Part shown: positions 12,464 to 55,875 of the stretch, piece after piece
Position numbering within the stretch: the first letter of the stretch is position 1
Layout: every line of letters begins with the position of its first letter
Assembly: GCA_021732145.1 (NCBI GenBank)
Contig: JAKFVN010000006.1
Location: 2,474-66,473, forward strand
DNA: 64,000 nucleotides
Source of the DNA: Alphaproteobacteria bacterium
Lineage (GTDB): Bacteria > Pseudomonadota > Alphaproteobacteria > UBA9219 > RGZA01
Direction of reading: 5' to 3'
The notes under the pieces: generated by a model
Databases searched by the model: none
Seen by the model: only the letters and a program-made list of their open reading frames with translations
Told to the model about the DNA's origin: nothing
Made by a program: the position numbers and the translations under genes

Positions 12464-13102
12464 ATGCTTATAGCCATCGACGGCCCATCTGCCAGCGGCA
12501 AGGGCACCATTGCCCGTAAGCTCGCTGACCATTTCAAGCTCCCCTATCTTGATACGGGGCTGCTGTACCGCTGGGTGGCATTAAACCTTAAACAGCAGAA
12601 TAAGGCAGCCGATGATGTAGCCAGTGCGACGAAAGCTGCCATTCACCTGCGTCAGCACATTAAGACCATTTCATTTGATGACCCAGACCTGCGCAGCCAT
12701 GCGATTTCACAGCCCAGCAGCCAGGTTGCGGCCATGCCGGAAGTGCGCCGTGAACTGGTTGAATTACAGCAATCCTTTGCGGGTCAGGCCGGCGGGGCCG
12801 TGCTGGATGGCCGTGATATCGGCACGGTTATCGCCCCCCATGCCAAAATTAAGCTGTTTATTACCGCTTCTGCCGAAAAACGGGCCGAGCGGCGATTTAA
12901 AGAGTTGCAAAACAAGGGTGAAACCACTACATATGATGCCGTTCTAACGGATTTACAGGCGCGTGATGCAAGGGATGAAACCCGAACAACGGCGCCTTCC
13001 AAGATTGCGGCGGATGCCGTGAAACTGGATACCAGCGATTTGAATGTGGATGAAGCCTTCCAAGCCGCCCTGAAAATCGTGAACTCCCAAAGAAATACGT
13101 AG
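12464..13102 (+). CDS. cmk: cytidylate kinase
   Basis: IAIDGPSASGKGT, LDTGLLYR, VLDGRDIGTV; upstream of rpsA. Confidence 0.97.
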   Translation: MLIAIDGPSASGKGTIARKLADHFKLPYLDTGLLYRWVALNLKQQNKAADDVASATKAAIHLRQHIKTISFDDPDLRSHAISQPSSQVAAMPEVRRELVELQQSFAGQAGGAVLDGRDIGTVIAPHAKIKLFITASAEKRAERRFKELQNKGETTTYDAVLTDLQARDARDETRTTAPSKIAADAVKLDTSDLNVDEAFQAALKIVNSQRNT

Positions 13103-13144
13103 GGCGGGTTGTGCCGACAGGCACAGACGCATCACGTAAATAAT
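13099..13144 (+). repeat. GYAG-headed REP-like hairpin, copy 1 (overlaps cmk stop)
   Basis: GTAGGGCGGGTTGTGCC-GACA-GGCACAGACGCATCACGTAAA; aligns with 15150-15194 and the reverse complement of the 54817-54978 units. Confidence 0.75.
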
Positions 13145-15145: not shown

Positions 15146-15149
15146 GAAC

Positions 15150-15194
15150 GCAGCCGCGGTTGCGCCGTAAGGCGCAGAGCAGTCGCGTAAATAT
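15150..15194 (+). repeat. GYAG-headed REP-like hairpin, copy 2
   Basis: GCAGCCGCGGTTGCGCC-GTAA-GGCGCAGAGCAGTCGCGTAAA between the rpsA stop and its terminator. Confidence 0.75.
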
Positions 15195-40689: not shown

Positions 40690-40869
40690 AGAAATGGTGA
40701 CCCCGATGGGATTTGAACCTCATGCGGAGCATGGATAGGTTATGGGTTCAACACCCGCAACCCCAGAAATGGTGACCCCGATGGGATTTGAACCTCATGC
40801 GGAGCATGGATAGGTTATGGGTTCAACACCCGCAACCCCAGAAATGGTGACCCCGATGGGATTTGAACC
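40690..40869 (-). repeat. 75-bp tandem array (2.4 units) built from the tRNA-Lys 3' end
   Basis: TGGTGACCCCGATGGGATTTGAACC at 40695, 40770 and 40845 with identical 50-bp intervening segments. Confidence 0.93.
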
Positions 40870-40920
40870 CATGACCACTCGATTAAAAGTCGCGTGCTCT
40901 ACCAGCTGAGCTACAGGGTC
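40845..40920 (-). tRNA. tRNA-Lys (TTT)
   Basis: GACCCTGTAGCTCAGCTGGTAGAGCACGCGA-CTTTTAA-TCGAGTGGTCATGGGTTCAAATCCCATCGGGGTCACCA; one G.A mismatch in the anticodon stem. Confidence 0.94.
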
Positions 40921-54074: not shown

Positions 54075-54413
54075 TTAGATGGCGGCTGCGCCACGTTCTT
54101 GGGTGCTGATGCGCACCACCTGTTCAATGTTGTAAACAAAGATTTTGCCATCGCCCACTTTACCGCTGCCGGCGGATTTCAAAATGGTGTCCACAACGGC
54201 ATCGACCTGGCTATCTTCCACTGCAATGTCAAATTTTACTTTGTTAACGAAACTGGTCGCGGCTTCCGCGCCCACATACATTTCCGAATTGCCTTTTTGG
54301 CGGCCATAGCCGCGCACATCCGTCACGGTCATGCCATGCACGCCCATTTCATTGAGCGCTTCACGCACTTCGGTAAGCTTGAAAGGCTTAATGACGGCAA
54401 TAATCATCTTCAT
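54075..54413 (-). CDS. P-II family regulator, divergent T-loop (Tyr51->Ala)
   Basis: MK.I.AVIKPFKL..VREAL, GYGRQKG, G.VGDGKIFV; 112 aa. Confidence 0.93.
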   Translation of the reverse strand: MKMIIAVIKPFKLTEVREALNEMGVHGMTVTDVRGYGRQKGNSEMYVGAEAATSFVNKVKFDIAVEDSQVDAVVDTILKSAGSGKVGDGKIFVYNIEQVVRISTQERGAAAI

Positions 54414-54510
54414 GTAAGGGCTCCGGCAATCGTGATGTCTGGTATGAAATTCTGTGTTGTATATCCAGTGAATTGGCCTAAATTATAGCAATCATTTGAA
54501 CCGGTCAATT

Positions 54511-55875
54511 ATGCGTAAAACAAGCGAAAAACAAAAAAAACAGCACGATGTCATCATCGCGGGCGGCGGCCTTGCGGGGCTTGTCATGGCAGCGCGGCTT
54601 GGCAGCGCCGGGCTTGACGTAGCGGTGGTTGAACGCATTGCCCAGGCCAACATGACCAGCACCGCCTTTGATGGCCGCTCCACCGCCATTGCCTATGGCT
54701 CCGCCAGAATTCTCGATGCATGCGGTGTGTGGAATAAAATTAAAGATACCACCTGTCCGATTGATGATATTCGCGTCGCCGACCAACGCAGCGCCCTGAC
54801 ACTGGATTTCGAAAGTAAGGACGTATTTTTATGCGATGCCTCTGCGCCAAATGGCGCAACCGGCCCTGCTAAGGACGTATTTTTATGCGATGCCTCTGCG
54901 CCAAATGGCGCAACCGGCCCTGCTAAGGACGTATTTTTATGCGATGCCTCTGCGCCAAATGGCGCAACCGGCCCTGCTGGGGGCGATAAGGCTTTTGGCT
55001 ATATTGTTGAGAACACGGTTTTCAGAACCGCGTTGTTTGAGCGGTTGGCCGAACTAAACAACGTAACGCTCGCCTGCCCAGTTGCCATACAAGCTATTCA
55101 TTATGAAGACGATGCCATAACGCTGGCTTTAGATGATAATTCAACGCTGCGCGCCAGGCTGCTGATTGCGGCGGACGGCAAAAAATCATTCTGCCGCGAG
55201 CATGCGGGCATACAAGCGCGCCATTGGTCATATAACGAAACCGCGCTGGTGGTCACGATTAAGCATACCATGCCGCATCATAATCTGGCGCTGGAATACT
55301 TTTACCCCGGCGGGCCATTCGCTGTGTTACCGATGAGCGATAACCGATCCAGCATCGTATGGACTGAAAAGCCTGATACCGCCGCAGCATTGCACACAAT
55401 GCCGGAAGACGAGTTTATTGGGCTATTGAAAGAACGTGGCTGCGAAAACCTTGGCGGCATTTCGCTGGCAACACCGCGCCAGCAATACCCGCTGCGCTTT
55501 ATGCTGGCAGATAGTTTGCACGCCCCACGCCTTGCCTTGATTGGCGAAGCCGCGCACAGCATGCACCCCGTCGCGGGCCAAGGATTCAATCTAACTGTAC
55601 GCGACATTGGCGTATTGGGCGATTTGATTGAAATGCGTTTCAAAACCGATGGTGATATTGGCGCGGATGAATTGCTGCAACGCTATGATGCTGGGCGGCA
55701 GCTTGACCACTTCACCTTCATGACTGCAACCGATGTACTGGTAAAATTATTCTCAAATAATGTCCTTCCCTTGCGCCTTATCCGCCGCTTTGGCTTAGCG
55801 TTGATTGAGAAAATTCCGCCTGCAAAAAAATTCTTCTCGCGCATGGCGATGGGCTTGATCACCAGCGGTAAATAA
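54511..55875 (+). CDS. UbiH/UbiF/VisC (UbiL-like) FAD-dependent hydroxylase with internal repeat insertion
   Basis: GGGLAG, FDGRSTAI, AADG..S, GPFAVLP, GEAAH.MHP.AGQG.NL. Confidence 0.92.
   Translation: MRKTSEKQKKQHDVIIAGGGLAGLVMAARLGSAGLDVAVVERIAQANMTSTAFDGRSTAIAYGSARILDACGVWNKIKDTTCPIDDIRVADQRSALTLDFESKDVFLCDASAPNGATGPAKDVFLCDASAPNGATGPAKDVFLCDASAPNGATGPAGGDKAFGYIVENTVFRTALFERLAELNNVTLACPVAIQAIHYEDDAITLALDDNSTLRARLLIAADGKKSFCREHAGIQARHWSYNETALVVTIKHTMPHHNLALEYFYPGGPFAVLPMSDNRSSIVWTEKPDTAAALHTMPEDEFIGLLKERGCENLGGISLATPRQQYPLRFMLADSLHAPRLALIGEAAHSMHPVAGQGFNLTVRDIGVLGDLIEMRFKTDGDIGADELLQRYDAGRQLDHFTFMTATDVLVKLFSNNVLPLRLIRRFGLALIEKIPPAKKFFSRMAMGLITSGK
54817..54978 (-). repeat. 3 x 54-bp perfect in-frame tandem repeat containing the REP-like hairpin
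   Basis: AAGGACGTATTTTTATGCGATGCCTCTGCGCCAAATGGCGCAACCGGCCCTGCT at 54817, 54871 and 54925, encoding (KDVFLCDASAPNGATGPA)x3. Confidence 0.95.

What the first reader, a model, noticed from the sequence alone, without database searches (positions are those of the whole stretch)
54817..54978. REP-like element inserted in frame and triplicated inside a ubiquinone hydroxylase
Seen: three perfect 54-bp units encode (KDVFLCDASAPNGATGPA)x3. Removing the insert leaves ...LDFESKDV-GGDKAFGYIVEN, a normal-looking UbiH-family loop. The 45-bp core is the reverse complement of the intergenic hairpin family at 13099 and 15150, and the 9-bp AAGGACGTA appears to be host sequence carried along in the amplification. 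Known: Rickettsia palindromic elements create new peptide segments in this way. Inference: a repeat family generating protein sequence, with a variable-number tandem array in a probably important enzyme.
Basis: partly seen in the sequence, partly recalled or inferred. Interest (0 to 1): 0.78.

Follow-up and report, generated by a model that had tools for sequence, protein, structure and literature searches.

The report
Translated hairpin repeat tripled in UbiH gene
A small hairpin-forming DNA repeat that normally sits between genes was inserted in frame into a loop of this bacterium's only ubiquinone hydroxylase and then copied three times in tandem, a known kind of event seen here in a new repeat family.

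Summary
Window 54817-54978 holds three perfect 54-bp units, in frame in the genome's only UbiH/UbiF/COQ6-family hydroxylase gene.

Orthologs show the site is empty in two species of the same genus, in another genus and in 15 of 20 aligned homologs. A single 48-bp (16-aa) insert sits there in two sister species. The window's unit is 9 bp of host sequence (K-D-V) plus 45 bp of that insert.

The insert belongs to a genus-restricted REP/RPE-like hairpin family of about 36 loci. No cognate RAYT transposase was found. Eleven loci lie in frame inside verified genes (PheT, HolA, HisF, XseA, HemH, MnmA and others), always in one of two Ala/Gly/Pro/Ser-rich frames.

Unit number varies between public metagenomes: one unit in two runs, about two and about three in two others. 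A related element is also tripled in frame in a DnaJ-domain gene.

AlphaFold models the insert as a disordered loop in an otherwise intact UbiI-like fold.

Orthologous in-gene copies stay nearly invariant at synonymous sites while the host genes have diverged (combined P about 7e-8).

Intragenic REPs and Rickettsia RPEs are already described, so this is a new member of a known kind.

The parts
54496..55875 (+). UbiH/UbiF/VisC/COQ6-family FAD-dependent ubiquinone hydroxylase gene. The ORF is 459 aa; the start shared with orthologs is probably the ATG at 54511 (MRKTSEK...).
   Evidence: ORF. TIGR01988 402.8 bits against a cut-off of 224.65, and Pfam FAD_binding_3 at 2.9e-31. Foldseek best hits are E. 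coli UbiI 4k22 and A. baumannii UbiH 7mwa. It is the only TIGR01988 gene over the cut-off in the genome.
54817..54978 (+). In-frame tandem array of three identical 54-bp units (54817-54870, 54871-54924, 54925-54978), encoding residues 108-161, (KDVFLCDASAPNGATGPA)x3.
   Evidence: AlphaFold gives pLDDT below 50 for residues 113-163.
54817..54825 (+). Host codons AAG GAC GTA (K-D-V), carried along in the duplication and repeated at 54871-54879 and 54925-54933.
   Evidence: Orthologs G002 and G003 have these codons once, upstream of a single insert. Empty-site orthologs end the strand with a Val codon followed directly by Gly.
54934..54981 (-). The 48-bp element as originally inserted: TTT...GCT GGG on the + strand, with the family consensus reading on the - strand. 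Truncated 45-bp copies lie at 54826-54870 and 54880-54924.
   Evidence: DNA alignment of filled sites (G000, G002, G003) with empty sites (G001, G004, G005). nhmmer E 5e-13.
13098..13141 (+). Intergenic copy of the same family, the GTGCC/GGCAC stem variant with a 5' GTAG, just after a gene end.
   Evidence: E 5.4e-9. As single-stranded DNA it folds at -11.8 kcal/mol, z -3.96.
15149..15193 (+). Intergenic copy of the same family (GCAGCCGC... variant), just after a TAA stop and upstream of a terminator-like hairpin.
   Evidence: E 3.6e-10.

Best explanation
A short, non-autonomous REP/RPE-like hairpin element (consensus GCAGGGCCGGTTGCGCC-N4-GGCGCAGAGGCATCGCGC) was inserted once as 48 bp into the codon boundary Val|Gly of a loop of the ubiquinone hydroxylase. 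This happened in an ancestor of G000, G002 and G003. The insertion survived because three conditions were met: its length is a multiple of three, it is read in one of the two benign Ala/Gly/Pro/Ser-rich frames, and it sits in a loop that does not disturb the fold. Later, in the G000 lineage, 45 bp of the element plus the 9 upstream host bases were duplicated in tandem. The first step was probably illegitimate recombination or slippage at the hairpin, with 1 nt (T) of junction homology. After that, ordinary slippage or unequal exchange between 54-bp units would do. The result is a variable-number in-frame array of 1, about 2 and about 3 units in natural populations, adding 16 to 52 residues of disordered loop. 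Shown here: the insertion, its boundaries, the family, the frames used, the copy-number variation, and nucleotide-level conservation of the element. Inferred: the duplication mechanism, that the enzyme stays active, and what mobilises the element.
For: - Array and frame.
- Empty and filled orthologous sites at protein and DNA level.
- Family: 39 nhmmer hits at E<0.01, which is 36 loci.
- Distribution of the core pattern: 21 matches in G000 and 4 to 9 in each of the 4 other genomes of the genus. Other genera of the family have 0 or 1. In other families 2 of 33 genomes have one match. The reversed control gives 0.
- Stem kept by compensatory change: C:G in 18 copies, T:A in 7.
- Copies inside verified genes: 11 of 36 loci. 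All 5 of 5 same-strand copies read A-G/E-P-V...AEASR and all 6 of 6 opposite-strand copies read ...SAPxGAT....
- The HisF copy is present in G000 only.
- Copy number: the X1 contig bridges with 1 unit. X2 has no cover of the junction, and its two pieces overlap by 30 nt. X3 has an 84-nt junction unitig at depth 13.1 against flanks of 7.2-8.7. X4 has 55-nt and 59-nt unitigs at depths 24 and 15.7, a ratio of 1.53, roughly the 3/2 expected for three units.
- Four further tandem arrays of related hairpin units exist in the genome. One is 48 bp x3 in frame in a DnaJ-domain gene and is absent from 3 orthologs.
- Structure: the insert has pLDDT below 50 in both the 3-unit and the 1-unit models, and the rest of the fold is confident.
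Against: - All read evidence comes from k=31 contigs, not raw reads. The exact unit number in the window's source (3, or more collapsed to 3) is not proven, and one of the multi-unit runs may be the window's own sample.
- No mobilising enzyme was found. Y1_Tnp is absent from G000, G002, G003, G004 and G005, and the two Y1_Tnp genes of G001 are not flanked by the element.
- Several 'insertions' are not clean. In PheT and HisF native loop residues were replaced as well.
- Presence and absence across species fits no single tree: UbiH in G000, G002, G003; PheT in G000, G002, G001; HolA in G000, G001. Losses, recombination or repeated insertion must be added.
- Enzyme activity with 1 or 3 units is untested.
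Confidence: 0.85

Rival explanations
1. The triplication is an assembly artefact, and the real genome has one unit.
For: The genome is a 54-contig draft. The repeats are perfect. Contigs of runs X1 and X2 are consistent with one unit.
Against: Runs X3 and X4, from two other studies, hold unitigs that contain the unit-to-unit junction, which cannot exist with one unit. In X4 the depth ratio of unit-internal to junction unitigs is 1.53. The genome carries four other perfect or near-perfect arrays of related units. One of X3 and X4 may be the source sample, so independence is not assured.
Confidence: 0.06
2. The three species acquired the element independently at a hot-spot site, rather than through one ancestral insertion.
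For: Presence and absence across the genus is patchy for every host gene examined. The non-loop part of the element is nearly identical between species although the host gene has diverged. In HolA, G000 and G001 carry different subfamily variants at the same place.
Against: The three UbiH copies share the insertion point to the base. They also share a locus-specific loop (AAAT, AAGT, AAGT) that differs from the loops of other copies in the same genome. The same holds for PheT (CAC, CAA, CAA). The element ends have diverged like old sequence.
Confidence: 0.1
3. The insert has been recruited for a function of the enzyme, for example a flexible tether or a partner- or membrane-contact loop, and its unit number is selected.
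For: It has been retained in three species while host synonymous sites diverged by 40-47%. This is the only hydroxylase of its family in the genome.
Against: The same peptide types occur in at least 10 unrelated enzymes. P0003 has lost half of the insert. The insert is modelled as disordered. Conservation is at the nucleotide level, including synonymous sites, not specifically at the peptide level.
Confidence: 0.08
4. The segment is an ancestral part of the protein that other lineages lost.
For: None found beyond its presence in three related species.
Against: It is absent from 15 of 20 aligned homologs down to 41% identity, and from G001, G004 and G005. Its DNA belongs to a dispersed family with intergenic copies. 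Solved homologs run straight through the site.
Confidence: 0.01

Closest known systems
Intragenic REPs of the GTAG- and CGTC-tagged palindromic repeat superfamilies (Di Nocera, De Gregorio and Rocco 2013, PMC3733652; passages read)
   Same: Both are short hairpin repeats (stem 5-13 bp, loop 2-20 nt), mostly placed after genes, with some units lying wholly inside genes for known proteins, tRNA synthetases and replication or repair genes included. The paper reports clusters made of units reiterated in tandem together with flanking DNA, and clusters that encode 43-82 aa. The CGTC type is common in Alphaproteobacteria and has no dedicated transposase.
   Different: The 5' tag here is mostly GCAG (GTAG in one of 24 aligned copies) and there is no CGTC tag. 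No RAYT was found. No inverted dimers appear in the hit list. A high share of loci is intragenic (11 of 36). I did not see the paper's Additional file 3, which lists target genes and peptides, so I cannot say whether a related family or a ubiH target is listed there.
Rickettsia palindromic elements, RPE (Ogata et al. 2000, 2002; known to me only through passages of PMC10969869 and PMC3733652; the originals are not held)
   Same: Both are palindromic repeats inserted in frame into unrelated metabolic and housekeeping genes of an alphaproteobacterium, adding peptide segments judged compatible with the fold. No transposase is known for either.
   Different: RPEs are about 100-150 bp, three times longer, and confined to Rickettsia, an obligate intracellular genus. 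This family is about 45 bp and lives in a free-living aquatic Rhodospirillales-type genus with a 2.1-Mb genome. Sequence relatedness was not tested because no RPE sequence was at hand. An in-frame tandem array with population polymorphism, and conservation at synonymous sites, are not mentioned in the passages I read.
Variable-number tandem repeats inside bacterial genes (for example mycobacterial MIRU-type loci; recalled, plus the search listing of PMC12817950)
   Same: Units of about 50 bp, multiples of three, whose copy number differs between strains.
   Different: Here the unit is a mobile hairpin element plus 9 host bases, inside a core respiratory enzyme rather than a surface or intergenic locus.

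Membership tests
Ubi-OHases (UbiH/UbiF/VisC/COQ6 hydroxylases, TIGR01988) | Score above the curated cut-off on the family model | tested here: met
   402.8 bits against a cut-off of 224.65, in two stretches interrupted at the array. No equivalog model (UbiH, UbiM, UbiI and others) reaches its own cut-off, so the regiospecificity is open.
Ubi-OHases (UbiH/UbiF/VisC/COQ6 hydroxylases, TIGR01988) | Class A flavoprotein monooxygenase fold with an N-terminal FAD-binding Rossmann motif | tested here: met
   The GGGLAG motif is at residues 23-28. Model pTM is 0.80. Foldseek gives 4k22 (UbiI) at E 1.8e-34 and 7mwa (UbiH) at 3.2e-32.
REP (repetitive extragenic palindromes, GTAG type, RAYT-associated) | Short imperfect palindrome repeated many times in the genome | tested here: met
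   36 loci at E<0.01. The stem has 7 positions with a loop of 3 to 4 nt in 19 of 26 scored copies, and is kept by compensatory changes.
REP (repetitive extragenic palindromes, GTAG type, RAYT-associated) | Conserved GTAG tetranucleotide at the 5' end | tested here: not met
   23 of 24 aligned copies have GCAG at that place; one (window 13099) has GTAG.
REP (repetitive extragenic palindromes, GTAG type, RAYT-associated) | A RAYT (Y1 transposase, PF01797) gene in the genome, flanked by the REPs | tested here: not met
   0 matches in G000 (completeness 100%), G002, G003, G004 and G005. G001 has two Y1_Tnp genes without the element nearby (nhmmer E 0.28 or worse). A draft genome can miss a gene.
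REP (repetitive extragenic palindromes, GTAG type, RAYT-associated) | Predominantly extragenic, often as inverted pairs (REPIN/BIME) | tested here: inconclusive
   18 of 36 loci lie in no ORF of 140 aa or more, 11 lie inside verified genes and 7 are unresolved. No closely spaced inverted pair stands out in the hit list, but this was read off the list, not tested formally.
CGTC-tagged REPs | CGTC tetranucleotide at one end of the stem | tested here: not met
   The consensus GCGCAGGGCCGGTTGCGCCGCTAGGCGCAGAGGCATCGCGCAAAAA holds no CGTC on either strand.
Rickettsia palindromic elements (RPE) | In-frame insertion into unrelated protein-coding genes | tested here: met
   UbiH, PheT, HolA, HisF, XseA, HemH, MnmA, RdgB, an epimerase and two sites of a hydrolase.
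Rickettsia palindromic elements (RPE) | Sequence membership in one of the RPE families (about 100-150 bp, Rickettsia) | not tested
Length (45 against 100-150 bp) and host speak against membership. Rfam has no matching family: only 3 tRNAs were found in the window.

The most novel reading that the evidence does not exclude
The translated copies are not decaying passengers. While being read as protein they stay under purifying selection, or active maintenance, at the DNA or RNA level. Across species, the third codon positions of the element are invariant at 14 of 16 (UbiH), 11 of 13 (PheT) and 12 of 14 (hydrolase) codons. Only 40%, 35% and 50% of host third positions are invariant. Variation is confined to the loop and the ends, and the host codons differ right up to the boundary. 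This would mean the hairpin with its flanks has a sequence-specific cellular partner or role. It would also make the element a dual-coding module that seeds in-frame length polymorphism in core enzymes.
Probability: 0.45. Interest if true: 0.6.

Novelty: new member of a known kind. Interest (0 to 1): 0.4.

Why it matters
It adds a well-documented case of protein sequence created by a mobile hairpin repeat, outside Rickettsia and in a free-living aquatic alphaproteobacterium. Three stages of the process can be seen side by side:

- empty sites in sister species;
- single old insertions shared by species;
- a recent in-frame tandem expansion that is polymorphic between natural populations, in the only ubiquinone hydroxylase of its family in the genome.

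The conservation of the element at synonymous sites bears on an old question: whether REP-like repeats are merely selfish or are kept for something. Here the question becomes testable, because each in-gene copy comes with its own neutral control, the synonymous sites of the host gene.

Tried and rejected
- **Classical REP-RAYT system:** rejected for now. No Y1_Tnp was found in G000 or in 4 of 5 relatives, and the two genes in G001 are not flanked by the element.
- **CGTC-REP membership:** rejected because there is no CGTC tag.
- **Known RNA family:** Rfam at gathering thresholds finds only 3 tRNAs in the window.
- **Hairpin energy of the UbiH copy as evidence:** a single unit folds no better than shuffles (z -0.84 and -1.33 as DNA). 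The three-unit mRNA stretch gives z -2.38. I rest the hairpin claim on covariation across copies, not on these energies.
- **Gene conversion between paralogous copies as the cause of synonymous-site conservation:** judged unlikely. Loops are locus-specific and shared by orthologs. It is not excluded.
- **Universal 'only two frames' rule:** holds for the 11 verified in-gene loci of the main subfamily. The related CCCGAGCGGTTGCGC... subfamily is read otherwise: PERLRDSAERMA in the DnaJ-domain gene, and other registers in HisF and HolA of G001.
- **Weak profile hits (0.01<E<1):** these lie in PurD, RluB-like, RsmI, DnaG, PyrD, a glycosyltransferase, RecN and an M15 peptidase. I did not count them as insertions.
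- **ORFs L007, L009 and L013:** they have no family match and were left unresolved.
- **Ogata et al. 2002:** could not be read.
- **Earlier notes of this scan:** a search by sequence found no look-alike.
- **RNA runs:** none held the stretch, so expression was not examined.

Full report
**1. The observation**

Window 54816-54978 is a perfect tandem repeat: period 54, 3.0 copies, 100% matches, TRF score 326. The 44-nt core occurs three times without mismatch, nowhere else in the window within 3 mismatches, and none of 100 shuffles gives 3 matches. The array lies in frame in the ORF 54496..55875(+), 459 aa, and reads (KDVFLCDASAPNGATGPA)x3.

The ORF is a UbiH/UbiF/VisC/COQ6-family hydroxylase. 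It scores 402.8 bits on TIGR01988 against a cut-off of 224.65, in two stretches split at the array, and 2.9e-31 on Pfam FAD_binding_3. No equivalog model reaches its own cut-off. It is the only gene of that family over the cut-off in the 2.09-Mb, 54-contig genome.

**2. It is an insertion, and where its ends are**

A search of the large protein collection gave 964 homologs at E<=0.001 among 8000 scored candidates, of which 120 were listed. I aligned the window protein with 19 of these:

| Group | Sequences | Site |
|---|---|---|
| No insert | 15 of 20 | ...DF(E/D)Sxx-V directly followed by G-(D/N)xAFGYIVEN |
| One 16-aa insert | P0002, P0004 | FLRDASAPSDATGHAT, FKRDASAPDGATGPAA |
| Half an insert | P0003 | FKRDASA |
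| One unit, otherwise identical to the window | P0001 | one unit |

In whole genomes of relatives, G002 and G003 (same genus) carry one insert. G001 and G004 (same genus) and G005 (another genus of the family) have the empty site.

At the DNA level the insert is 48 bp between a Val codon and a Gly codon. The window's 54-bp unit is therefore 9 bp of host sequence (AAG GAC GTA) plus the first 45 bp of the insert. The last insert codon, GGG at 54979-54981, stands once after the array. There is no direct repeat of the 9 bp after the last unit, so it is not a target-site duplication but host sequence carried along in a tandem duplication. The two junctions share a single T.

**3. The family**

A profile built from the first fuzzy matches and iterated once finds 39 matches at E<0.01 in the genome. 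That is 36 loci when the two arrays are counted once.

- The consensus is GCGCAGGGCCGGTTGCGCC-loop-GGCGCAGAGGCATCGCGCAAAA.
- The stem has 7 positions and is kept by compensatory changes. At its fourth position 18 copies have C:G, 7 have T:A and 1 has T:G. Other copies have longer loops that extend the stem.
- A core pattern gives 21 matches in G000 and 6, 8, 9 and 4 in the four other genomes of the genus. It gives 0, 1 and 1 in three genomes of two other genera of the family. In the other two families of the order, 2 of 33 genomes have one match. The pattern read backwards gives 0 anywhere.
- No Y1/RAYT transposase (PF01797) is found in G000, G002, G003, G004 or G005. G001 has two, neither with the element nearby.
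- Rfam has nothing for it.

**4. The same family is translated in many other genes**

Of the 36 loci, 11 lie inside ORFs confirmed by NCBIfam or Pfam:

| Host gene | Position of the element (aa) |
|---|---|
| UbiH | 108-161 (array) |
| PheT | 650-664 |
| HolA | 198-215 |
| HisF | 148-166 |
| XseA | 205-213 |
| HemH | 144-153 |
| MnmA | 163-176 |
| RdgB/Ham1 | 99-115 |
| NAD-dependent epimerase | 148-162 |
| alpha/beta hydrolase, site 2 | 140-154 |
| alpha/beta hydrolase, site 3 | 223-237 |

Eighteen loci lie in no ORF of 140 aa or more. Seven are unresolved, being ORFs without a family match or positions upstream of the modelled protein, as for MnmG.

All 5 same-strand copies are read as A-(G/E)-P-V...AEASR. 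All 6 opposite-strand copies are read as ...(D/R)xSAPxGAT.... The consensus has no stop in four of its six frames, and only loop-dependent stops in the other two. The unused frames would encode Arg/Cys/Leu-rich peptides. By my arithmetic, chance agreement is between (1/2)^9 and (1/3)^9.

A related subfamily (CCCGAGCGGTTGCGC...GCGCAGAGCGAATGGCG) is read in other registers, so the rule is one of the main subfamily only.

**5. History**

Presence differs from gene to gene:

| Host gene or site | Genomes with the insert |
|---|---|
| UbiH | G000, G002, G003 |
| PheT | G000, G002, G001 |
| HolA | G000, G001 (different subfamily variants) |
| HisF | G000 only |
| Hydrolase, three sites | different subsets of species |

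Orthologous copies share locus-specific loops: UbiH has AAAT, AAGT, AAGT and PheT has CAC, CAA, CAA. This argues for one insertion per locus followed by losses or exchange between species. Repeated insertion at hot spots is not excluded. Some events also replaced native loop residues (HisF, PheT).

**6. Conservation at synonymous sites**

| Host gene | Species compared | Host third positions invariant | At four-fold sites with conserved residue | Element third positions invariant | Binomial P |
|---|---|---|---|---|---|
| UbiH | 3 | 39.6% | 34% | 14 of 16 | 1.1e-4 |
| PheT | 3 | 35.3% | 28% | 11 of 13 | 3.8e-4 |
| Hydrolase site 3 | 2 | 49.7% | 44% | 12 of 14 | 6.1e-3 |

The Fisher combined P is 6.9e-8. 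The variable positions are in the loop and at the element ends. The host codons next to the element differ at 5 of 8 and 5 of 11 third positions between G000 and G002.

So the non-loop part of the translated copies is held constant at the nucleotide level. Selection on a DNA or RNA signal is the simplest reading. Conversion from other copies is made less likely by the locus-specific loops. The species are few and related, so the P values are indicative.

**7. Unit number**

Only contigs (k=31) of public runs could be laid.

| Run | What was seen | Units implied |
|---|---|---|
| X1 | A 24,814-bp contig with no other difference over 54300-55500 skips 108 bp | 1 |
| X2 | No cover at 54874-54914; two pieces ending at 54867 and starting at 54946 overlap by 30 nt in unit register | 1 |
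| X3 | An 84-nt piece spans the unit junction, depth 13.1 against flanks of 7.2-8.7 | about 2 |
| X4 | A 55-nt unit-internal piece at depth 24 and a 59-nt junction piece at 15.7, ratio 1.53 against 3/2 expected for three units | about 3 |

The four runs belong to four studies. One of the multi-unit runs may be the window's source. Contigs show presence, not absence, and raw reads were not available.

**8. Tandem amplification is a habit of these elements**

TRF over the genome gave 148 rows. It finds five arrays whose unit is a hairpin element of this or a related subfamily plus some flank:

| Place | Period x copies | Context |
|---|---|---|
| Window 54816-54978 (UbiH) | 54 bp x3 | in frame |
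| C8 22570 | 48 bp x3 | in frame |
| C3 47981 | 44 bp x7.1 | intergenic |
| C27 24897 | 47 bp x3.9 | no ORF spans the array |
| C8 45148 | 62 bp x2 | intergenic |

The C8 22570 array reads (KPTPERLRDSAERMAQ)x3 in a DnaJ-domain protein. It is absent from the orthologs of G001, G003 and G004, and G002 has a different sequence there.

**9. Effect on the protein**

AlphaFold2 models were built with the ortholog alignments.

- 3-unit protein: mean pLDDT 79.5, pTM 0.80. Residues 113-163 are below 50, lying between strand 102-106 with helix 107-111 and strand 168-172.
- 1-unit protein (P0001): mean pLDDT 84.1, with residues 108-122 below 50.
- The rest of the fold is the same in both.
- Foldseek places the model with E. 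coli UbiI (4k22, 1.8e-34) and A. baumannii UbiH (7mwa).
- In the best sequence match to a solved structure (4n9x) the chain runs on without a gap where the array sits.

This fits a surface loop, but solvent exposure was not computed and activity is untested.

**10. What is known**

- Passages of Di Nocera et al. 2013 (PMC3733652) describe REPs of the GTAG and CGTC superfamilies inside genes for known proteins in several species. They also describe clusters of units reiterated in tandem with flanking DNA, clusters encoding 43-82 aa, and CGTC REPs without a transposase.
- Passages of a 2024 review (PMC10969869) and of Delihas 2011 (PMC3184786) summarise the Rickettsia RPEs and other in-frame repeat fusions.
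- The original RPE papers are not held.
- Earlier notes of this scan list the same kind of thing in many other genomes: 83 notes in at least 82 genomes. None has this sequence.
- I saw no supplement of PMC3733652. Its Additional file 3 may bear on whether such a family or target is already listed.

**11. Verdict**

The thing is a new family, and a clean worked example, of a known kind. Two features are worth keeping: the population-variable in-frame array in a core respiratory enzyme, and the nucleotide-level conservation of translated copies.

Noticed in passing
window 40690-40920: tRNA-Lys(ttt) at 40845-40920(-) is followed by two extra tandem 75-bp copies. Each holds the last ~27 nt of the tRNA plus 48 nt with a small hairpin (TRF 75 bp x2.5, 99%). 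Similar arrays of tRNA 3' fragments lie at G000:C43:5181-5390 (89 bp x2.4) and C5:39462-39670 (89 bp x2.3). A 79 bp x6.2 array at C30:2844-3335 starts beside a tRNA-like end. Their origin, integration scars or slippage, is open.
   Followed up: partly
G000:C8:22570-22711 (locus L040): A second in-frame triplication: 48 bp x3 of a related hairpin subfamily gives (KPTPERLRDSAERMAQ)x3 in the N-terminal linker of a DnaJ-domain protein. It is absent from the orthologs of G001, G003 and G004.
   Followed up: partly
G000:C3:47981-48293: An intergenic array of 7.1 nearly perfect 44-bp units, each a hairpin of the related subfamily (GAGCGGTTGCGCGTAAGCGCAGAGCAAATGGC on the other strand).
   Followed up: no
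G000:C24:32554-34937 and C21:34-205: A CRISPR-like array: a ~36-nt repeat GGTTCTGGCTAGACCGCAAAATCCTGTCTGATATAAT with ~30-nt spacers (66-bp period, about 30 units).
   Followed up: no
L003 (G000:C3:64080-65060): One alpha/beta-hydrolase gene carries element copies at three sites (aa 30-43, 140-154, 223-237). Each site is filled in a different subset of the five species compared.
   Followed up: partly
L021 and L032 (G001 HisF and HolA): G001 carries copies of the other subfamily at the same loop positions where G000 carries main-subfamily copies. This suggests preferred slots or replacement of one variant by another.
   Followed up: no
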